DNA of 64,000 bases from a virus (lineage: Duplodnaviria > Caudoviricetes). The stretch lies in the IMG/VR virus record IMGVR_UViG_3300044840_000108, positions 1 to 64,000 of that record; one strand, written 5' to 3'. The position numbers and the translations under genes were made by a program. The first letter of the stretch is position 1; every line of letters begins with the position of its first letter. Of this stretch, positions 1 through 12,129 are shown piece by piece. Under the pieces are notes generated by a model that was given only the letters and a program-made list of their open reading frames with translations, had not been told where the DNA came from and ran no database searches.

Positions 1-1521
1 TCACGCTCGCGAGAACGGTGACTGGGTGACCATGCCGCGTTGCGGGGGGTCCTCGTCCTCGTCGGTGACCCACAGTTGGTCGGTGTACTGCGGCACGATC
101 ACCATCGGCGGTGGTGTCCCTGCGTCCTGCTCGGCAGGCTTGTCGTCCTCGAATAGGGTGAACTCCGGGCCGGTGCCGAGATTGGTGAGCAAATAACGAA
201 TCCCATCGGCCGCATGGTCAGACGCTGCCGTGTCGGCGTCCTCCGGGTTGCCCTTCGTGGCGTGTGGCAAGTCCTGTAGCTCACGGAACAGGTTCGGGCA
301 CGTTGAGAAGATGTGCATCCGGGGACACGTTGCCCACCCTTGGGCGCGGTGGTGCGGGCACGCCGGGCCCTCACCGAGGTAGGAGTGGACACGCTGCCAC
401 CCGATGACCCGCGACCCCTTCCCTTTCCCCGCCGGGGTGAGGTACACGTCGTGCTCGGCGTACACGTCAGCGATCGGCCGGGCATCACCGCGGGTCGCCC
501 ACATCGCGTCGTCGGCGTAGCGGGCCACGATGTGTTCATCATCGGATTCGGCCGCCAGAATGCGACGCGCCTGGTCAGCTTCACCAACTTGAGTGGCGTA
601 CACCTCCCGGTACACCCACACCCGGCCGTCCTCATCGACCGCAGCCCACAGCACGCACCACGGGGCGGTGTAGCCCCAGTCCACGCCGTTGTAGCGCCGC
701 CACGACGCCGGCAGAGTGATCGGGTCGATGACGTGCCGATCTCGGGACAACTCCCGGAACATCTGTCCCGCGAACGCGCCCCAGTCGCCGTCGCGCATCG
801 CCTTGCGCTGCTCTTCGGGCAGCAACGCCAGGTCGGCCTTGTACTCCTCGTTGAGGTGCGGGTTGTCCAGCATCGACGAGCGGATGAACCGCACGGTTCG
901 GCCGCGTTTGTCGGTGACAACGGTCCGGCCGTAGTCGGTGGCGTCCACATACTTGGCCCGGACCGCACCATGCCCCGGTCCGCCAGGGTTCGCTGATGAC
1001 CGGATTCCCAGCACCGGGACGGCGGCTAGGCCGGTTCGCAGCCGAGTTTCCAGGTAGGTGACCACGAGCGGCGGGGTCAGGGTGCGCTCATCGAAGATCA
1101 GGAGTTGGTATTGGCCACCCTGCCGACGGGTCGCGTCAACCACGGTCTCCGCATAGCGGAACATGACGATGGCGCCGTTGCGGAACCGCAGATCATGGGT
1201 GGTGCCGTTCCACGATGCACCCAGCGCTCTCGCGAACTCCCGCTGTGCCAGTTCGGCCAGCAGGGACTCTTCCATTTCCGGGTAGGACCGGCGGAATGCA
1301 CCCACCCGCAGCCCCGGGTAGTGGACACATGCCCGGATGGCATGCATGAGCAGCGCGCAGCTTTTGCCGCCGCCAAGACTTCCGCCGAAAAGCACGTCGA
1401 ACTCGGTGGCGTCGTGAAACAACTGCTGCTTCGGTGTTGGCACGTACCCCAGGGCGTCGAACACTGGCTGATCAGGGGGGTCCAGGCGGTCAGCCAGCAG
1501 GGAAGCAAACGGGGACGGCAT
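1..1521 (-). CDS. terL: Phage terminase large subunit
   Basis: Walker A GGSLGGGKS, Walker B LLIFDE, SANPGG coupling motif, RNase H-like nuclease GVDWGY...DHAADGIRY. Confidence 0.92.
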   Translation of the reverse strand: MPSPFASLLADRLDPPDQPVFDALGYVPTPKQQLFHDATEFDVLFGGSLGGGKSCALLMHAIRACVHYPGLRVGAFRRSYPEMEESLLAELAQREFARALGASWNGTTHDLRFRNGAIVMFRYAETVVDATRRQGGQYQLLIFDERTLTPPLVVTYLETRLRTGLAAVPVLGIRSSANPGGPGHGAVRAKYVDATDYGRTVVTDKRGRTVRFIRSSMLDNPHLNEEYKADLALLPEEQRKAMRDGDWGAFAGQMFRELSRDRHVIDPITLPASWRRYNGVDWGYTAPWCVLWAAVDEDGRVWVYREVYATQVGEADQARRILAAESDDEHIVARYADDAMWATRGDARPIADVYAEHDVYLTPAGKGKGSRVIGWQRVHSYLGEGPACPHHRAQGWATCPRMHIFSTCPNLFRELQDLPHATKGNPEDADTAASDHAADGIRYLLTNLGTGPEFTLFEDDKPAEQDAGTPPPMVIVPQYTDQLWVTDEDEDPPQRGMVTQSPFSRA

Positions 1522-1536
1522 GACCGCCTCCCTGGT

Positions 1537-2130
1537 CTATCCGGCCACACGCAAGTGGCGGGCTACTCGGGATCGGGCGTCCCGCTGCTGCTCGTGCGAC
1601 AAGCCCATCTCGGCGAGCACCGCTCCCAACGCGGAAGCCACGGTCGCCGCCTGCTCCTCGGACACCCGAGCTAGGCGTTCGTCAATGTTCAGCCGGCCGA
1701 TCCCCAGGAGGAGGTGTCCGAGCCGGTCCATCGCACGTTCCAGCAACTGCACCTCAGCCTTGACCTGCTCACCCACGGCACCGGCATAGCCGAGACTCGT
1801 CAGCCCCGAGACGCGTTCGGCAACCAGTTGTTTCCACCGTTTCGCCTCGCCAGCCAGCACCTGAAGTTCCCGTAGCGGGTCCTCTACCGGGTCGGCCGTG
1901 CCAAGGAGGGAGGTCAGGGCTTGCTGGTCGCGGTGTAGTTGCTGCTCTACCAGGGCGAGGTGGCCGCTGTTCTGGTGGTTGCGGGTGCTGCCGCCGTGGA
2001 ACTTGCACCGGCCGGCTCCAGCGTGTGGGGTGCCCCATCCGGCGGGACGTCGGCAACACCCGTCGCCCTGCCGCTTCTTGCCGCCACACAGTGACCGGTC
2101 ATGACCTGGAGTGGGGGGCTGGGCTGTCAT
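1537..2130 (-). CDS. Probable terminase small subunit (HGGxSTG-like Zn motif plus helical domain)
   Basis: CGGK...CCRRPAG...CKFHGGST motif; directly upstream of terL; ATG at 2130 chosen. Confidence 0.65.
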   Translation of the reverse strand: MTAQPPTPGHDRSLCGGKKRQGDGCCRRPAGWGTPHAGAGRCKFHGGSTRNHQNSGHLALVEQQLHRDQQALTSLLGTADPVEDPLRELQVLAGEAKRWKQLVAERVSGLTSLGYAGAVGEQVKAEVQLLERAMDRLGHLLLGIGRLNIDERLARVSEEQAATVASALGAVLAEMGLSHEQQRDARSRVARHLRVAG

Positions 2131-2149
2131 GGCCTCATGCCCCCTGACA

Positions 2150-2194
2150 CACCATATCGATGTGGTGCGTTCCGGTGACATGTGGTGCTATGAT
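2150..2194. promoter_or_regulatory. Divergent promoter region: near-palindrome CACCATATCGATGTGGTG and extended -10 TGcTATGAT for a leaderless RHH gene
   Basis: Palindrome 2150-2167; TATGAT 2189-2194 lies 6 nt before ATG 2201; ATGTGGTGC repeated at 2160 and 2180. Confidence 0.5.
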
Positions 2195-2200
2195 GGTGTC

Positions 2201-2425
2201 ATGGTGAACCGCAAACAGAAGTCGGCAGAGGGCATTGCTGTCTTCTCGGTGAGACTCCCCCAAGAGCTGGCGAGAGCCGTCCAGAGCGAGGCTGACCGGG
2301 AGTCCCGCTACCGCAACAACATGATCCAGGTGTTACTCAAGGAAGCGCTCCAGCACCGGCAAGCCGCTTCGTCCGCTCGACGGCGCCAGGGATCGACACC
2401 GGACGACACCCTCCCAACCGCCTAA
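2201..2425 (+). CDS. Arc/ribbon-helix-helix DNA-binding protein
   Basis: FSVRLPQELARAVQSEADRESRYRNNMIQVLLKEAL fits the beta-alpha-alpha RHH pattern. Confidence 0.75.
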   Translation: MVNRKQKSAEGIAVFSVRLPQELARAVQSEADRESRYRNNMIQVLLKEALQHRQAASSARRRQGSTPDDTLPTA

Positions 2426-2460
2426 ACTCCTCCACCACGAAAACGGGAGACGATAACCCA

Positions 2461-3405
2461 GTGACCAGTGTCAACGACCAACCACCACCAGATGACAGCC
2501 GTATCGCGAAGAACCTGCGTGCGCTGGCCAAACTTTGGTTCCGTGGCCTTGACCTGCCCGAGACGGTAGCGCGCCTGAACGAGCTACGCTCCGTGCTCGC
2601 CGAGTTCAGCCCGTTCAGCTCCGAACCGGTCGACTACGTCGAGTGGGTACCTGCGGAAGATGTCCAGGCCAACAGTTACAACCCGAACACTGTGGCTGCT
2701 CCCGAGATGGAGTTGCTGCGACTGTCCATCCTGGCGGACGGGTTCACCCAGCCCATCGTGTCGAACGCCGAGGACGGGCACCGCGAGGTCGTTGACGGCT
2801 TCCACCGGTCCAGAGTCGGCAAGGAGTCCCCCGACGTAGCGGAACGCGTCAAGGGCTACCTGCCACTGGTACAGATCCGGTCGGACCGCGGTGACCGCTC
2901 GGACCGGATGGCATCCACGATCCGCCACAACCGGGCGCGCGGCAAGCACCAAGTCGTGAAAATGTCCGATATTGTGCTTGACTTGAAGCGGCGCAACTGG
3001 TCAGACAACAAGATCGCCAAAGAGTTGGGCATGGACCCCGACGAAGTGTTGCGCCTGACCCAGATCACCGGCCTGGTAGAAGCGTTTAAGGACCGCGACT
3101 TCTCGCAAGCATGGGAACACGTCGGGCCTGTTGAGGATATCCCAGACCCTGACGGTGAAGACGACGGCCCGGTCAACCTGGAATGGATGAACGGGATGGC
3201 GCCGCCGAAGCGACCGGCTGGCTGGTACGAGCGGACCCCGTCAAGTCACGTGCTGTACGGCGAGACCGGGGGGCAACTTGGGCTGATCCAGAAGAGCCGG
3301 TTCGCCGACGAATGGTTCTGGTACGCCTACACGCAGCCCCTGTCCGAAGGGCGGGCGGCGACATCAACAGACGCCATGCAGGCTGTCGACTTGGCCCACG
3401 CGTGA
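2461..3405 (+). CDS. ibrB: IbrB/YbdM-like ParB/Srx-domain protein with C-terminal extension
   Basis: ANSYNPN, GFTQPIV, VVDGFHR and STIRHNRARGKH motifs typical of this family. Confidence 0.85.
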   Translation: MTSVNDQPPPDDSRIAKNLRALAKLWFRGLDLPETVARLNELRSVLAEFSPFSSEPVDYVEWVPAEDVQANSYNPNTVAAPEMELLRLSILADGFTQPIVSNAEDGHREVVDGFHRSRVGKESPDVAERVKGYLPLVQIRSDRGDRSDRMASTIRHNRARGKHQVVKMSDIVLDLKRRNWSDNKIAKELGMDPDEVLRLTQITGLVEAFKDRDFSQAWEHVGPVEDIPDPDGEDDGPVNLEWMNGMAPPKRPAGWYERTPSSHVLYGETGGQLGLIQKSRFADEWFWYAYTQPLSEGRAATSTDAMQAVDLAHA

Positions 3406-3785
3406 AGCGGATCTATCACCACTTCGTCCTGTGGGAAGAGTGGCCAGCGGGAATGTGGCGCATCGACCCGGTCGAGTTCGAGTTCGAGGTTGCCGTGGTA
3501 CTCATGCGCAACACGGCACGGTGGGTAGCAGCGATGCGCCAGGTTGCCCGCATGTGGCCCCGCTCATGTGAGCAAAACTTGTCGCATACCGAACACAATC
3601 GGGTGGCGTGGCTCGGCCAGGCCGCCGTGTGTCTCGCCGTGGGGCAACCGGCCGTGGTCACCCGGAAGACGTGGTGGCAACTCACCAGGGGCCAGCAAGA
3701 CCAGGCCAACGCGGGGGCGCAGGCCACGATTACAGAATGGGAGGCCAGTCAATGCCCAGACAATCAATTGGCGTTGATGTTCTGA
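3402..3785 (+). CDS. Trp-rich hypothetical protein between ibrB and ibrA
   Basis: GTGA overlap with ibrB; KRIYHHFVLWEEWPAGMW...NRVAWLGQAA. Confidence 0.7.
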   Translation: MKRIYHHFVLWEEWPAGMWRIDPVEFEFEVAVVLMRNTARWVAAMRQVARMWPRSCEQNLSHTEHNRVAWLGQAAVCLAVGQPAVVTRKTWWQLTRGQQDQANAGAQATITEWEASQCPDNQLALMF

Positions 3786-4993
3786 CAGCCGCGCGGCAAC
3801 GTGTCGCGCTCGCGTTCGATCATTTTGAGAAGATTTGCGTCAGTTACAGCGCAGGCAAGGACAGTACCGTCCTACTTCATCTGGTGATGGAGGAGGCGAG
3901 GCGGCGGAACCGCAAGGTTGCGGTACTTCTCATCGATCTGGAGGCACAATATCGATCCACGATCGAACACGCCGAAAAGCTGTACGACATGTACCGGGAC
4001 CACATCGAGCCCTACTGGGTAGCGTTGCCGTTGCATCTGCGGAACGCGGTCAGTGTGTTCGAGCCGTTCTGGCAGTGCTGGGACCCGGAGGCGCGAGAGG
4101 CGTGGGTCCGGCAACCGCCAGCGATTGCTATCACCGACCCCGGTTACTTCCCGTTTTTCCGGCAAGGTATGGAGTTCGAGGAGTTCGTCCCCCAGTTTGC
4201 CGAGTGGTACTCGAACGGTGTCGCTACGGCGTTTTTTGTGGGCATTCGCACTCAGGAGTCCTACAGTCGGTTCTTGGCCATCGCGTCAGGCCACAAGTCG
4301 ATGTGGGATGGCTACCGGTTCACTACCGGCGTGTGCGAACGCTCGGACTCGTACAACTTCTACCCGCTGTATGACTGGGCCACCGAGGACATCTGGACCT
4401 TCCAGGGCCGCCATCCCGAGTTGCCCTACAACGGCGTGTACGACCTCATGCACTTGGCTGGCGTGTCGATCCATGTTCAGCGAATCTGCCAGCCGTACGG
4501 GGATGACCAGCGGCGAGGGCTGTGGCTGTACCATCTGCTGGAACCGGACACGTGGGGCCGTGTCGTAGCCCGAGTGAACGGGGCTAACAGCGGGGCTATG
4601 TACTCGCAGGAACACGGCAACATTAACGGCTACCGCAAGGTGTCCAAACCTCCGCACTTGACTTGGAAAGAGTTCGCCTACCTGTTGGTGCAGTCCCTGC
4701 CGCGAACGACGCAGGAGCACTACGCGAACAAAATCGGCATCCACGTGAAGTGGTGGACCGACCGTGGCTATCCAGAAGGCATCCCGGACGAAGCCGACTA
4801 CGATCTGGAGATCGCCAAGAAGGTCCCCTCGTGGCGGAGGGTGTGTAAATGCTTGCTGCGGAACGACTGGTGGTGCAAGTCGCTTGGCTTCACCCAGCAC
4901 AAGTCAGCCGCGTACACCGCCTACCTGGAGTTGATGCGGAAACGGAGGGCGCGGGCTGGCGAAGAGCAGCAACTCGCCTTAGCCGCCACGTAA
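3752..4993 (+). CDS. ibrA: IbrA/YbdN-like PAPS-reductase-fold (PP-loop) protein with DUF3440 C-terminus
   Basis: PP-loop SYSAGKDS, GIRTQES, YPLYDW, RICQPYG, PSWRRVCKCLLRNDWWCKSLGF; GGGAGG RBS before ATG 3752. Confidence 0.88.
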   Translation: MPRQSIGVDVLTAARQRVALAFDHFEKICVSYSAGKDSTVLLHLVMEEARRRNRKVAVLLIDLEAQYRSTIEHAEKLYDMYRDHIEPYWVALPLHLRNAVSVFEPFWQCWDPEAREAWVRQPPAIAITDPGYFPFFRQGMEFEEFVPQFAEWYSNGVATAFFVGIRTQESYSRFLAIASGHKSMWDGYRFTTGVCERSDSYNFYPLYDWATEDIWTFQGRHPELPYNGVYDLMHLAGVSIHVQRICQPYGDDQRRGLWLYHLLEPDTWGRVVARVNGANSGAMYSQEHGNINGYRKVSKPPHLTWKEFAYLLVQSLPRTTQEHYANKIGIHVKWWTDRGYPEGIPDEADYDLEIAKKVPSWRRVCKCLLRNDWWCKSLGFTQHKSAAYTAYLELMRKRRARAGEEQQLALAAT

Positions 4994-9445: not shown

Positions 9446-9519
9446 TGGCGGCGACCGGATTCGAACCGGTGACCTGCGAGTTATGGGCCCGCCGAGCTAC
9501 CGAACTGCTCTACGCCGCG
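9446..9519 (-). tRNA. tRNA-Met(CAT), initiator (fMet) type; CCA not encoded
   Basis: Cloverleaf CGCGGCG TA GAGC-AGTTCGGTA-GCTC G GCGGG-CCCATAA-CTCGC AGGTC ACCGG-TTCGAAT-CCGGT CGCCGCC A; 1:72 mismatch and G29-G30-G31. Confidence 0.92.
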
Positions 9520-9822: not shown

Positions 9823-11514
9823 TCATGCGGCAACCGTCGAGTCCAACCATGGCCACGTCCCGTTCCGGCCGGCTTCCAACAGGGGCAGGAGCCGGAATGT
9901 GGCGTCGGTCAGGCCGCCCAACTCGTGCCGGTTGCCGGACCCCGACGGGATGACGCCCTTGGCGTAGCCGGCCAGATTGAAGCCGTACACCGGGACGTTG
10001 TCGGGTACGAGGCGGGTGACCGGCACGGTCCGGCCGTGGATGTCCAGCGCGGTGTAGCCGTAGCCGGGGACGGGGGCGGTGGGCATGGTTTGCATGTCGG
10101 AGATCAACACCACCCGGTCGTGCCCGTTGTAGGTGGCCTGCACTGCCGGTCCGATGCGGGTGCCGTGCCCGACCTCCCCGATGCGCTGGCAGAACGCCTG
10201 CACCTCCCGCAACACTGACGCACCGGACGGCACGCGGTGCCGGAACACGCCGTCAGCGAAACCGTGCAAGTCGACCTGTTCGCCTCGTGCGGCCAGCGCC
10301 ACCCCGAACAGGGCTGCCACTTCCACGTTCGTCATGGTCGACTTGCCGGACACGCTGGCCTGCATGGATGCGGAGGTGTCGACCAGCACGAGGGTGCGGC
10401 CACCGAACCGGGGCAGGTTCGACAGGGAGTGCTGCAGTGCCTGCTCCAGGGCGTGACCCCACCGCAGCGACGGCGCCGCCTTGTACGCCGAGTAGAACCG
10501 GTACGGGAACTGGCGGGATCCGGCGATCTCGTCGGGGTTCGCGAACTGGGCCAACACCGGTTGGATCACCGTGTCGGGCACACCGGCCTGATCAAGGTTC
10601 CGCAGGTTCCGCAGCCGGGCCATGATGCCCATCGACGGGAGGCTCGCCGACCATGCCGCCGCGTCCATCGGGCCCTGCAACCATCCGGCCAGCGCTTCCC
10701 ACGTGATGCCGGCGCGCCGCAGCAGGTCGGGGTCTTCCAACACGGTGCGGCGTTCGTCCACGGGCATCGCGAGCAGGGTCGCCCGCCGGGTGAGGGTGCC
10801 CAACGTTTCGGGGATGGGTGTGTCCCGGTAGGGCTGGCCCACGATGTACCCGAACAGGTCGTGTTGCCACTCGCCGCGGAGGTGTTGCGCCGCGCCGGCA
10901 CGGTCGCCGGGGTGGCACAGGTTCAGGAGGTCCGCGAACCGCACCCCCCGCGATTCGGAATCCCATTTGACGTAGTTGAACTCGGTGCCCAACCGGAGGA
11001 TGGCGTCCCCCACACCGCGTTTGACGGGCTTGGGGAGGTTCCGGCCGTACCGGTTCACCCAGTACGCCACCAGTTCGCCGGGTTCGTCGGCGCGCCGCAG
11101 GACGCTGTCCACAACGGTGCGGCCCGCGCCGCGTTCCCGCCGGCTGTGCGCGTCCTCCACCACCCCGGCGTCCAGCCGGGCCTTGACGAACTCTGCGGCA
11201 CCGACGATCGCGGCCGTGCGGATGTTGCCGTCCCGGCGTAGCCACGCCAGGAACTGGGCGACCCACGTCGGGTCGGTGAGGGTCACGGTGCGCACCAACT
11301 GCCGGTACCGGTCGCCGCGGTCGGCGCCGGTCTCGTAGAAGCTGTCCTCCTCGACCAGGCTGGACACGGCGGTGAGGAACAGTTCCGCGCGGGGTTCGCG
11401 GGTGTAGCCGGGCCCGCCTTCGTGGGTGACGGCGTCCGGCGTGCTGGTGCTGGTGGTGGCGAACGGGGATGTGCGGGTGGCACCGGGCGGGCGCCGAAGG
11501 TTGTGCTTTGCCAC
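9823..11514 (-). CDS. rsr: Ro60/Rsr TROVE-domain RNA-binding protein with vWA domain
   Basis: THEGGPGY...ELF...EDSFYE N-terminus, RADEPGE, PKPVKRG, MARLRNLRN, SRQFPYRF, MIDAS LVDTSASM...GT...ISDMQ; GGAG RBS. Confidence 0.93.
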   Translation of the reverse strand: MAKHNLRRPPGATRTSPFATTSTSTPDAVTHEGGPGYTREPRAELFLTAVSSLVEEDSFYETGADRGDRYRQLVRTVTLTDPTWVAQFLAWLRRDGNIRTAAIVGAAEFVKARLDAGVVEDAHSRRERGAGRTVVDSVLRRADEPGELVAYWVNRYGRNLPKPVKRGVGDAILRLGTEFNYVKWDSESRGVRFADLLNLCHPGDRAGAAQHLRGEWQHDLFGYIVGQPYRDTPIPETLGTLTRRATLLAMPVDERRTVLEDPDLLRRAGITWEALAGWLQGPMDAAAWSASLPSMGIMARLRNLRNLDQAGVPDTVIQPVLAQFANPDEIAGSRQFPYRFYSAYKAAPSLRWGHALEQALQHSLSNLPRFGGRTLVLVDTSASMQASVSGKSTMTNVEVAALFGVALAARGEQVDLHGFADGVFRHRVPSGASVLREVQAFCQRIGEVGHGTRIGPAVQATYNGHDRVVLISDMQTMPTAPVPGYGYTALDIHGRTVPVTRLVPDNVPVYGFNLAGYAKGVIPSGSGNRHELGGLTDATFRLLPLLEAGRNGTWPWLDSTVAA

Positions 11515-11561: not shown

Positions 11562-11631
11562 GGCCCGAGGTCTTCGTGATTCGACGGCAGCGTTTCTTGT
11601 TGTGAAGTAACTGTCATCAGCGCACCGGGCC
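11562..11631 (-). ncRNA. Y-RNA-like unit A (about 70 nt)
   Basis: GGCCCGGUGCG...UUACUUC...GACCUCGGGCC; ends pair; shares motifs with four neighbouring units; adjacent to Ro60. Confidence 0.7.
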
Positions 11632-11647
11632 AGCACCCACACGTGGT

Positions 11648-11763
11648 GCCTCCCGAGGTCAGGTTGATCACGGCGCCGGCCCCGCAAAGGACCGGGGTGA
11701 GGATTCGAACCCCGCCGGTTGCCCGGATTTGCCGAAGTAGCCGTGGTCGTCGCACCGGGAGGT
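11648..11763 (-). ncRNA. Y-RNA-like unit B (YrlA-type: T arm plus loop-closed acceptor stem)
   Basis: CUCCCGGUGCG...CUACUUC...GGUUCGAAUCC T-loop, CCGGUCC/GGGCCGG hairpin...UGACCUCGGGAG. Confidence 0.8.
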
Positions 11764-11778
11764 GCGTGTCGTGTTGGA

Positions 11779-11890
11779 GCCGCCCGAGATAAGAGAGCTG
11801 GTGAGCGGTCTGGTGTTCCCGGATCGTGGCCGGGGACACCCGCGAGCATGTTTGGCAGCGGAAGGAACGCTCACCTGCGCACCGGGAGGC
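11779..11890 (-). ncRNA. Y-RNA-like unit C
   Basis: GCCUCCCGGUGCG, GGUGAGCG/CGCUCACC inner stem, UUCCUUC motif variant, GGUGUCCCCGG/CCGGGAACACC hairpin, 3' AUCUCGGGCGGC. Confidence 0.7.
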
Positions 11891-11901
11891 ATGCAAGTCG
11901 G

Positions 11902-12035
11902 TGGTGCCCGAGGTCAAGTCGACGGCGGTCGAAGCGCTCTACCGTTGAGCTACGGGGGCGAACCCCCGAAAGGACTCGAACCTTTAACCACTCGCTTAAC
12001 AGGCGAAGTAACCGCTGTCTGCGCACCGGGCACCA
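11902..12035 (-). ncRNA. Y-RNA-like unit D containing a circularly permuted tRNA-Asn(GUU) cloverleaf
   Basis: Order: anticodon arm UUCGC-CUGUUAA-GCGAG, UGGUU, T arm AAAGG-UUCGAGU-CCUUU, acceptor CGGGGG-UUCG-CCCCCG, UA, D arm GCUC-AACGGUA-GAGC, all inside the shared scaffold. Confidence 0.88.
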
Positions 12036-12054
12036 ATGAAGTTGTGGGGACAGG

Positions 12055-12129
12055 CTCCCGAGGTCAGGTGGCCTGGCGGCGGGTGTTCGCTTGTGAAATC
12101 GAAGTAGCCGCTGGGTCGCGCACCGGGAG
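12055..12129 (-). ncRNA. Y-RNA-like unit E (about 75 nt)
   Basis: CUCCCGGUGCG, GCGGC/GCCGC inner stem, CUACUUC, 3' UGACCUCGGGAG. Confidence 0.7.

What the first reader, a model, noticed from the sequence alone, without database searches (positions are those of the whole stretch)
11935..12007. Complete circularly permuted tRNA-Asn(GUU), anticodon loop included, embedded in a Y RNA
Seen (minus strand): anticodon arm UUCGC-CUGUUAA-GCGAG, variable UGGUU, T arm AAAGG-UUCGAGU-CCUUU, acceptor stem CGGGGG/CCCCCG sealed by UUCG, UA, D arm GCUC-AACGGUA-GAGC, G. All four arms are present, but the chain opens between the D and anticodon arms and has no free CCA end. CUUCG occurs both before the anticodon loop and after the D arm, so two alternative pairings with CGAG are possible. 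Known: YrlA RNAs carry D, T and closed acceptor arms, with the Ro-binding stem replacing the anticodon arm. Inference: the retained canonical 7-nt GUU loop suggests an unchargeable decoy for anticodon nucleases or modification enzymes, a conformational switch, or a precursor that could be ligated and reopened into a real tRNA.
Basis: partly seen in the sequence, partly recalled or inferred. Interest (0 to 1): 0.82.

Follow-up and report, generated by a model that had tools for sequence, protein, structure and literature searches.

The report
Y RNA containing a permuted tRNA
A phage small RNA that partners with the Ro protein carries a complete tRNA-Asn look-alike, anticodon loop included, wired in rearranged order; it belongs to the known YrlA family, but the anticodon-like loop, published as a "variable arm", is conserved in about half of its relatives.

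Summary
On the minus strand, 12007-11935 reads anticodon arm (UUCGC-CUGUUAA-GCGAG), 5-nt variable loop, T arm, a 6-bp acceptor stem closed by UUCG, UA, D arm and G26. Re-permuted in silico, ARAGORN calls it tRNA-Asn(GUU). Outside the anticodon arm it is 81% identical to a genuine actinobacterial tRNA-Asn.

It is the tRNA-like domain of a YrlA-class Y RNA (Rfam E 9e-8, below the gathering score). It is unit 2 of five Y-RNA units directly upstream of a phage Ro60/Rsr gene.

The hairpin is not unique. Of 77 YrlA-type elements from phages and actinobacteria, 41 have it in exact tRNA register. U33 is 95%, R37 98% and A38 93%, but there are 22 different triplets.

Covariation shows a hybrid anticodon stem. 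The top two pairs use the strand after the D arm (39/41, all Watson-Crick). The lower three use the upstream strand. So the Ro-binding stem branches from inside the anticodon stem, not between the D and anticodon arms.

The papers I could read call this hairpin a variable arm and state that YrlA lacks an anticodon loop. This is a known family with a new reading of one part. The loop's function is untested, and a tRNA-precursor role is unlikely.

The parts
11902..12035 (-). Whole YrlA-type Y RNA unit, second of five tandem units upstream of rsr
   Evidence: Sequence read. Rfam RF02553 matches 11916-12018 at 42.8 bits, E 9.3e-8.
12027..12033 (-). 5' strand of the terminal stem, GUGCCCG, which pairs with CGGGCAC at 11904-11910
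   Evidence: Perfect 7-bp complement. The same CCCGG...CUCGGG ends occur in all five units.
11904..11910 (-). 3' strand of the terminal stem, CGGGCAC
12019..12026 (-). GUGCGCAG, the presumed Ro60/Rsr-binding 5' motif, facing CGACUUGACCU at 11911-11921
   Evidence: Conserved in the other units and in homologs such as L034, L080, L126 and L141. It resembles the GNCGAAN0-1G motif of PMC4201824. Binding was not tested.
12011..12018 (-). Inner Y stem 5' strand, ACAGCGGU, which pairs with ACCGCCGU at 11922-11929 with one A.C mismatch
   Evidence: (Rfam alignment)
11922..11929 (-). Inner Y stem 3' strand, ACCGCCGU
12006..12010 (-). Junction strand UACUU, part of the conserved UUACUUC motif. Its last two U (12007, 12006) could also pair with G43 and A42.
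   Evidence: Motif seen. Pairs 27h:43 and 28h:42 show no covariation.
12003..12005 (-). C29 G30 C31, the 5' strand of the lower three anticodon-stem pairs, which pairs with G39 C40 G41 at 11993-11995
   Evidence: Strong covariation in homologs: 7, 14 and 21 double-sided changes.
11996..12002 (-). 7-nt anticodon-like loop CUGUUAA (C32 U33 G34 U35 U36 A37 A38)
   Evidence: The loop signature is conserved in 41 homologs.
11991..11995 (-). G39 C40 G41 A42 G43, the 3' strand of the anticodon stem
11986..11990 (-). Class-I variable loop UGGUU. U48 forms the Levitt pair with A15.
   Evidence: 15:48 is A:U in 37 and G:C in 37 of 77 elements.
11969..11985 (-). T arm AAAGG-UUCGAGU-CCUUU
11953..11968 (-). 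Closed acceptor stem CGGGGG-UUCG-CCCCCG, 6 bp with no free 3' end
   Evidence: The acceptor helix is full of compensatory changes in homologs.
11936..11952 (-). U8 A9 followed by the D arm GCUC-AACGGUA-GAGC
11933..11935 (-). G26, then C27 and U28, which make the top two anticodon-stem pairs with G43 and A42
   Evidence: 27a:43 is paired in 94% and 28a:42 in 91% of elements, with four pair types each. The replicate set gives 83% and 96%.
11930..11932 (-). Junction strand UCG leading back into the Y stem
9823..11514 (-). rsr, a Ro60 homolog of 563 aa with TROVE and vWA domains
   Evidence: Pfam hits. It is 38-41% identical over 94% of its length to 'Ro-like RNA binding protein' of Streptomyces and Gordonia phages.

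Best explanation
The locus is the effector (tRNA-like) domain of a YrlA-class Y RNA made by a temperate actinophage, transcribed with four other Y-RNA units just upstream of the phage's Ro60/Rsr gene. The domain is an entire tRNA-Asn(GUU)-type cloverleaf in circularly permuted order. The acceptor stem is sealed by a UUCG loop, so it cannot be charged. The RNA's two ends leave the cloverleaf through the anticodon stem and pair to form the Ro-binding Y stem. Family-wide covariation shows where the ends leave. The strand after the D arm makes the top two pairs (27:43, 28:42) as in a real tRNA. An upstream strand makes pairs 29:41 to 31:39 and carries the 7-nt loop. The Y stem is therefore the third arm of a three-way junction inside the anticodon stem. 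This hairpin is the 'V' stem-loop of the 2014 YrlA description, and it is better read as a retained anticodon arm. It is most likely inherited from the first copy of an ancestral tRNA dimer, with Asn-type the best guess for this element. How it works, by inference from the family: Rsr binds the Y stem, and the full L-shaped mimic presents elbow, anticodon stem and a U-turn loop to tRNA-recognising proteins. Selection keeps the loop's architecture (U33, R37, A38) but not the triplet. That points to recognition of a generic anticodon loop, for example as an uncleavable or unchargeable competitor or docking site, rather than decoding.
For: Identity as YrlA: Rfam E 9.3e-8 and 1.4e-9. It lies on the same strand directly upstream of a TROVE+vWA gene. 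The Levitt pair 15:48 covaries in 74 of 77 elements. Permuted tRNA-Asn: ARAGORN on the re-joined sequence. Its best match among the 58 tRNAs of a Nonomuraea genome is tRNA-Asn(gtt), 0.81 identity outside the anticodon arm. The Rfam YrlA model also hits tandem tRNA-Asn gene junctions in actinobacteria at 36-42 bits. Conserved anticodon arm: 28 of 53 and 13 of 24 elements have it in fixed register, with U33 39/41, R37 40/41 and A38 38/41. There are 22 triplets, GUU is the commonest at 8/41, and 23/41 lie within one change of GUU. Hybrid stem: pair counts on alignment A1. RNAalifold independently predicts the after-D pairs. Among the 41 hairpin elements the after-D strand makes both outer pairs in 39, all Watson-Crick. 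The hairpin strand can do so in 19, only 2 of them Watson-Crick, and never exclusively. The same loop CUGUUAA occurs in Microbacterium phage SM23, a Nonomuraea genome and several uncultured phages.
Against: In the window both pairings are possible, so the hybrid is shown for the family and only inferred here. The match is below Rfam's gathering score (42.8 against 69). Family-wide, D/V/T-arm similarity does not single out Asn: Asn 0.778, Gly 0.774. The Asn ancestry is therefore solid only for this element and a few others. No expression, Rsr-binding, modification or effector data exist for this RNA. The two reviews most likely to discuss the hairpin (Sim & Wolin 2018; Sim et al. 2020) could not be read.
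Confidence: 0.8

Rival explanations
1. Conformational switch. The RNA toggles between a self-contained 5-bp anticodon hairpin and a form in which CGAG pairs with the CUUCG after the D arm, changing what the Ro RNP can bind.
For: In the window both strands can pair with A42 and G43. In 19 of 41 homologs both outer pairings are possible. The full hairpin is about 5-6 kcal/mol better in the nearest-neighbour model.
Against: The hairpin's outer pairs show no covariation: 55% against 54% shuffled, and 66% against 62%. The replicate set gives the same result. In 20 of 41 elements they cannot form at all. The slipped CUUCG/CGAG register is at background in homologs (slide +1). At most a 2-bp branch migration at the junction is left.
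Confidence: 0.12
2. Evolutionary relic. The hairpin is a decaying leftover of the first tRNA of an ancestral tRNA dimer and has no role of its own.
For: About half of YrlA-type elements lack it in this register. The crystallised Salmonella YrlA has none (bioRxiv 10.1101/312249). The triplets are scattered around GUU.
Against: The stem has turned over many times with compensatory changes, while U33, R37 and A38 stayed at 93-98% and positions 34-36 drifted to 1.4-1.8 bits of entropy. Neutral decay would erode all seven loop positions alike.
Confidence: 0.12
3. Long variable arm (the published 'V' reading). The hairpin corresponds to the extra arm of class II tRNAs, and the Y stem alone stands in for the anticodon arm.
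For: PMC4201824 names it V and places it upstream of the T arm.
Against: A normal 5-nt class-I variable loop (NGGUY, with 48 in the Levitt pair) already lies between the hairpin and the T arm. The two nucleotides 3' of the hairpin pair with the strand after the D arm, so the hairpin sits at positions 29-41, not 45-46. The stem, the 7-nt loop and U33/R37 match an anticodon arm.
Confidence: 0.05
4. Permuted tRNA gene or precursor. The RNA is circularised or ligated across the Y stem and opened at the acceptor loop to give a working tRNA-Asn.
For: M. smegmatis YrlA is cut by RNase P in the acceptor loop and receives CCA in vivo (PMC4201824). Permuted tRNA genes exist in algae and one archaeon, as cited in bioRxiv 10.1101/312249. 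The record has no tRNA-Asn of its own.
Against: The acceptor stem is 6 bp closed by a tetraloop. The 6-bp Salmonella form is not cut, whereas the 7-bp M. smegmatis form is (PMC4201824). No bulge-helix-bulge motif is visible at the junction. The 104-kb record has no RtcB or CCA-adding enzyme. The triplet varies freely among homologs.
Confidence: 0.03

Closest known systems
YrlA (Y RNA-like A), Rfam RF02553; Salmonella Typhimurium YrlA crystal structure 6CU1
   Same: It is encoded beside rsr. The T arm lies 5' of the D arm with a closed acceptor stem. The elbow nucleotides and the Levitt pair are conserved. The Ro-binding stem is formed by the 5' and 3' ends, and the strand after the D arm pairs with the strand before the variable loop.
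   Different: Salmonella YrlA has no hairpin and is stated to lack the anticodon loop. Here a 3-bp hairpin extension and a 7-nt U33/R37 loop complete the anticodon arm, making a three-way junction. The score is below Rfam's gathering cut-off, as for every actinobacterial and phage element examined.
Actinobacterial and mycobacteriophage YrlAs with a 'V' stem-loop (Chen et al. 2014, PMC4201824)
   Same: Same four stem-loops (V, T, AS, D), same position upstream of rsr, and several Y RNAs processed from one transcript.
   Different: The published reading is a variable arm. The data here place the stem-loop at tRNA positions 29-41. M. smegmatis YrlA has a 7-bp acceptor stem that is cut by RNase P, whereas this one has 6 bp.
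Tandem tRNA-Asn(GUU) genes of actinobacteria
   Same: The junction of two copies gives the same order: anticodon arm, V, T, acceptor 3' strand, short spacer, acceptor 5' strand, D. The T loop, D arm and CGGGGG/CCCCNG acceptor are nearly identical, and the junctions are hit by the YrlA model.
   Different: These are two complete, separately matured tRNAs with no Y stem and no Ro association.
Circularly permuted tRNA genes (Cyanidioschyzon merolae and others)
   Same: The 3' half is encoded before the 5' half, and the acceptor is initially closed.
   Different: Those are processed via a bulge-helix-bulge splice site into real tRNAs. No such motif or enzyme is seen here, and the triplet is not conserved among homologs.
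tmRNA tRNA-like domain and TYMV tRNA-like structure
   Same: They are L-shaped tRNA mimics embedded in a larger RNA.
   Different: Those keep a free CCA end and are aminoacylated. This one is sealed at the acceptor end but keeps an anticodon-loop mimic.

Membership tests
YrlA-class Y RNA | Encoded within a few kb of, and on the same strand as, a Ro60/Rsr (TROVE) gene | tested here: met
   The RNA is at 11902-12035(-) and rsr at 9823-11514(-). TROVE and vWA domains; phage Ro-like homologs.
YrlA-class Y RNA | T arm 5' of the D arm, separated by a closed acceptor-like stem-loop | tested here: met
YrlA-class Y RNA | tRNA tertiary-interaction nucleotides conserved, including a covarying 15:48 Levitt pair | tested here: met
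   The window has A15:U48. The family has A:U in 37, G:C in 37 and other pairs in 3 elements.
YrlA-class Y RNA | 5' and 3' ends pair into a stem carrying a Ro-binding motif (GNCGAAN0-1G-like) | tested here: inconclusive
   The stem is present. The motif here is GUGCGCAG, conserved across the five units and in homologs. Binding was not tested.
YrlA-class Y RNA | Reaches Rfam RF02553 gathering score (69 bits) | tested here: not met
   42.8 bits, E 9.3e-8. None of the hits in 151 actinobacterial genomes reaches the cut-off either, so the model under-calls this clade.
YrlA-class Y RNA | Bound by Rsr in vivo | not testable with these tools
   This needs immunoprecipitation.
Canonical tRNA gene (tRNA-Asn) | Linear order acceptor-D-anticodon-T-acceptor with a free 3' end, and a score above the Rfam tRNA cut-off | tested here: not met
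   The linear call at 11960-12033 scores 19.6 bits against 29 and has no D arm.
Canonical tRNA gene (tRNA-Asn) | Cloverleaf with a GUU anticodon once the pieces are put in tRNA order | tested here: met
   ARAGORN calls tRNA-Asn(gtt) on the re-permuted sequence.
Circularly permuted tRNA gene | Bulge-helix-bulge splice motif at the joined ends, plus a splicing endonuclease and ligase | tested here: not met
   No 3-nt/4-bp/3-nt motif is seen in the Y stem by inspection. The record has no RtcB.
Circularly permuted tRNA gene | Acceptor loop opened by RNase P/Z and CCA added | not testable with these tools
   The 6-bp stem with a tetraloop argues against it, by analogy with PMC4201824. The record has no CCA-adding enzyme.

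The most novel reading that the evidence does not exclude
The anticodon-loop mimic is the working end of phage and actinobacterial Ro-YrlA particles. It would be a sealed, unchargeable, complete tRNA decoy that titrates or senses host anticodon-loop nucleases, or anticodon-loop modification enzymes or synthetases. The loop triplet (GUU here; UCU, CAU, CUU, GAU elsewhere) would be tuned to the tRNA species under attack, and Rsr would couple that recognition to RNA decay or repair.
Probability: 0.12. Interest if true: 0.85.

Novelty: new variant of a known kind. Interest (0 to 1): 0.55.

Why it matters
Y RNAs tether Ro60 to effectors, but the effector of the tRNA-like YrlA class is still unknown. 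The only solved structure lacks an anticodon loop, and the field describes YrlA that way. This work shows that about half of phage and actinobacterial YrlAs carry a selected anticodon stem-loop, built as a hybrid stem with the Ro-binding helix branching from it. That widens the list of candidate partners to proteins that read the anticodon loop: nucleases, modification enzymes and synthetases. It gives the competitive-inhibitor idea of Hughes et al. 2020 a concrete structural basis. It supports the tRNA-dimer origin model with an almost unaltered example. It also has a practical side. These elements are annotated as tRNAs in GenBank phage records (SM23 tRNA-Asn, VanLee tRNA-Arg), and Rfam's gathering cut-off misses them.

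Tried and rejected
- The protein-pattern search for Rsr relatives in viral contigs found nothing. Homologs came instead from DNA patterns, the phage tblastn and genome scans.
- The linear ARAGORN tRNA-Asn at 11960-12033 was rejected as an artefact.
- A family-wide isotype test on the D, V and T arms did not discriminate Asn from Gly, Thr, Arg or Lys. I therefore do not claim that all YrlAs descend from tRNA-Asn.
- I looked for a match between the hairpin triplet and the isotype most similar in the D/T arms. None was evident in the examples printed.
- Nearest-neighbour energies do not support the hybrid stem for the window RNA. I rely on covariation and say so.
- RNAalifold on A1 recovers the after-D pairs, T, acceptor and D arms but not the hairpin, which only about 55-70% of the sequences have.
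- The supplements of Chen 2014 and the reviews Sim & Wolin 2018 and Sim et al. 2020 are not held. I could not see the published drawings of the V arm or confirm that nobody has called it an anticodon arm.
- Searches for RtcB and a CCA-adding enzyme in the record were negative.

Full report
**What is there.** The window is part of a 104-kb IMG/VR provirus record. On the minus strand, 12035-11902 is a 134-nt unit. Its ends pair as GUGCCCG/CGGGCAC, with an inner stem ACAGCGGU/ACCGCCGU. Its centre reads, 5' to 3':
- UUCGC-CUGUUAA-GCGAG
- UGGUU
- AAAGG-UUCGAGU-CCUUU
- CGGGGG-UUCG-CCCCCG
- UA
- GCUC-AACGGUA-GAGC
- G
- CUUCG

The Rfam YrlA model matches 11916-12018(-) at 42.8 bits, E 9.3e-8. That is below the gathering score of 69. 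Over the whole record the E-value is 1.4e-9.

Directly downstream on the same strand lies a 563-aa TROVE+vWA protein at 9823-11514. It is 38-41% identical over 94% of its length to the 'Ro-like RNA binding protein' of Streptomyces and Gordonia phages. It is 53-57% identical to genes in Amycolatopsis, Actinokineospora and Nonomuraea.

The unit is the second of five tandem units sharing CCCGGUGCG...UACUUC...GACCUCGGG ends.

**Check of the 'permuted tRNA' reading.** I re-joined the pieces in tRNA order: acceptor 5' strand, UA, D arm, G26, hairpin, variable loop, T arm, acceptor 3' strand. ARAGORN then draws a clean cloverleaf and calls it tRNA-Asn(gtt).
- Against all 58 tRNAs of a Nonomuraea genome, the best match outside the anticodon arm is tRNA-Asn(gtt). 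Identity is 0.81, and the next best is Thr at 0.78.
- That match shares the same unusual short D loop (AACGGYA), the same T loop, and acceptor and T stems that differ by one covarying pair each.
- ARAGORN's linear 'tRNA-Asn' at 11960-12033 is an artefact. The tRNA model gives it 19.6 bits against a cut-off of 29 and skips the D arm.
- The record has one genuine tRNA (Met), no RtcB and no CCA-adding enzyme.

**Is the hairpin conserved?** A blastn hit led to Microbacterium phage SM23. It has the same arrangement, with the same CUGUUAA loop, upstream of an 'RNA-binding protein', and GenBank annotates it as tRNA-Asn. Rfam sees only YrlA there.

I then collected YrlA-type elements without using the hairpin as a criterion:
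- a pattern scan of viral contigs for a T loop followed by a D-arm start;
- the rsr neighbourhoods of actinobacterial genomes and phages;
- an Rfam scan of 151 evenly sampled genomes of the class.

After removing true tRNA neighbours, 53 non-redundant elements remained. A second scan with a different T-loop/D-loop variant gave 24 more.

I anchored each element on the T arm and D arm, with a fixed 5-nt variable loop. That register is validated by the Levitt pair 15:48, which is A:U in 37, G:C in 37 and something else in 3 elements. In this register, 41 of 77 elements have three consecutive pairs 29:41, 30:40 and 31:39 closing a 7-nt loop.

In those 41:

| Loop position | Conservation |
|---|---|
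| U33 | 95% |
| R37 | 98% |
| A38 | 93% |
| C32 | 78% |
| 34-36 | 1.4-1.8 bits of entropy |

- There are 22 different triplets across positions 34-36.
- GUU is the commonest triplet (8/41).
- 23/41 lie within one change of GUU, against about 16% by chance.

This is the signature of an anticodon loop kept for its architecture, not for decoding.

**Where the chain opens.** Per-pair statistics in the first set:

| Pair | Strand | Paired | Shuffled | Note |
|---|---|---|---|---|
| 27:43 | after D arm | 94% | 48% | four pair types |
| 28:42 | after D arm | 91% | 54% | four pair types |
| 27h:43 | upstream hairpin | 55% | 54% | no signal |
| 28h:42 | upstream hairpin | 66% | 62% | no signal |
| 29h:41, 30h:40, 31h:39 | upstream hairpin | 68-70% | 39-49% | 0 of 2000 shuffles reach this |

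- The pair-count tool on MAFFT alignment A1 agrees. Columns 43:117 and 44:116 are 94% paired with 20 and 23 double-sided changes.
- The hairpin's inner pairs have 7, 14 and 21 double-sided changes. Its outer pairs have only 2 each, with 15-16 unpaired cells.
- Slid controls fall to about 40%.
- RNAalifold on the same alignment predicts the after-D pairs on its own.
- The replicate set gives the same picture.
- Among the 41 hairpin elements, the after-D strand makes both outer pairs in 39, all Watson-Crick. The hairpin strand can do so in 19, only 2 of them Watson-Crick. In 20 elements only the after-D pairing is possible, and in none only the hairpin pairing.

The family rule is therefore a hybrid anticodon stem. 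The top two pairs are as in a real tRNA. The bottom three pairs and the loop come from an upstream strand. The Ro-binding stem is the third arm of a three-way junction.

For the window this gives a perfect stem: C27-G43, U28-A42, C29-G41, G30-C40, C31-G39.

One caveat applies. For this particular RNA both outer pairings are possible. The nearest-neighbour model, which ignores coaxial stacking and tertiary contacts, prefers the full hairpin (-43.9 kcal/mol) to the hybrid (-38.0).

**Relation to what is known.**
- Chen et al. 2014 (PMC4201824) found YrlAs beside rsr in 254 bacteria and 22 phages. [quoted passage not shown]
- They also showed that M. smegmatis YrlA, with a 7-bp acceptor stem, is cut by RNase P and receives CCA.
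- Wang et al. 2018 (bioRxiv 10.1101/312249) solved the Salmonella domain. They state that 'YrlA lacks the anticodon loop' and cite a model in which YrlA arose from a dimeric tRNA transcript.
- My data fit that model closely. The element equals one tRNA-length unit of a tandem repeat cut at 28/29.
- The Rfam YrlA model also hits tandem tRNA-Asn gene junctions in actinobacterial genomes, at scores (36-42 bits) equal to those of true YrlAs.
- Family-wide, however, the D, V and T arms do not single out Asn. An Asn origin is well supported only for this element and a few others.
- The hairpin cannot be a class II extra arm. A normal 5-nt variable loop lies between it and the T arm, and the two nucleotides 3' of it pair with the strand after the D arm.
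- I could not read the two reviews most likely to discuss this, nor the 2014 supplements. The claim that the anticodon-arm reading is new therefore rests only on the papers I could read.

**How it probably works.**
- Shown: sequence, fold conservation, genomic linkage to rsr, and a sealed acceptor end.
- Inferred from the family: Rsr binds the Y stem, and the L-shaped domain is recognised by tRNA enzymes (TruB, DusA, RNase P and the CCA enzyme in other species, PMC4201824).
- Inferred here: the loop is kept as a generic U-turn anticodon loop. The particle would then offer a complete but unchargeable tRNA surface.
- Hughes et al. 2020 (PMC7790460) suggested that YrlA may competitively inhibit an anticodon nuclease. 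A conserved anticodon-loop mimic makes that idea, or docking of another anticodon-loop reader, more concrete. Nothing here tests it.
- A tRNA-precursor role is unlikely: the acceptor is a 6-bp stem with a tetraloop, there is no splice motif, no ligase or CCA enzyme is present, and the triplet is free to vary.

**Verdict.** This is a member of the known YrlA family, of the hairpin-bearing subclass. That hairpin is best read as a retained, selected anticodon arm with a hybrid stem. That is a moderate but real revision of how this Y RNA class is described.

Noticed in passing
window 11562-12129 (-): Five tandem Y-RNA-like units lie upstream of rsr, each with a 5' CCCGGUGCG...UACUUC and a 3' GACCUCGGG. 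Only unit 2 has a full tRNA-like domain. M. smegmatis has two such RNAs (YrlA and YrlB) processed from one precursor, so five is unusually many.
   Followed up: partly
window 11648-11763 (-): Unit 4 has a T arm (GGGGUUCGAAUCCUC) and a closed acceptor-like hairpin but no D arm. This resembles the YrlB 'possible T-arm' described for M. smegmatis.
   Followed up: no
window 9446-9519 (-): This is the only genuine tRNA of the record, a tRNA-Met(CAU) just downstream of rsr. It has C33 instead of U33 (loop CCCAUAA), a C1xC72 mismatch and a G30-U40 wobble (alignment).
   Followed up: no
L002 2984-3090 (Microbacterium phage SM23, PQ655446); L130 2126-2229 (Gordonia phage VanLee, MZ028627): GenBank annotates 'tRNA-Asn' and 'tRNA-Arg(tct)' here. 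Both are the Y-stem strand, anticodon-like hairpin and T arm of YrlA-type elements next to Ro genes. The tRNA model scores below cut-off or not at all, while YrlA matches. Phage tRNA counts are probably inflated by such calls.
   Followed up: partly
L143, L144, L145, L148, L156 (actinobacterial genomes): Rfam's YrlA model hits the junction of tandem tRNA-Asn(GUU) genes at 36-42 bits, the same range as true actinobacterial YrlAs. No hit in 151 genomes reaches the gathering score of 69. The model neither separates nor captures this clade.
   Followed up: partly
L123 and L124 (Amycolatopsis), 1-4700: Here rsr and its YrlA sit inside an array of about 20 tRNA genes, like the tRNA arrays of large actinophages. 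Streptomyces phage pSt2308 shows the same arrangement.
   Followed up: no
alignment A1 columns 22-29; L034, L080, L130: The conserved UUAC of the UUACUUC motif (the YUAY of Chen 2014) can pair with GUCA on the 3' strand with a constant U.C mismatch. This extends the Y stem right up to the junction. It may correspond to the UA kink seen in the Salmonella structure.
   Followed up: no
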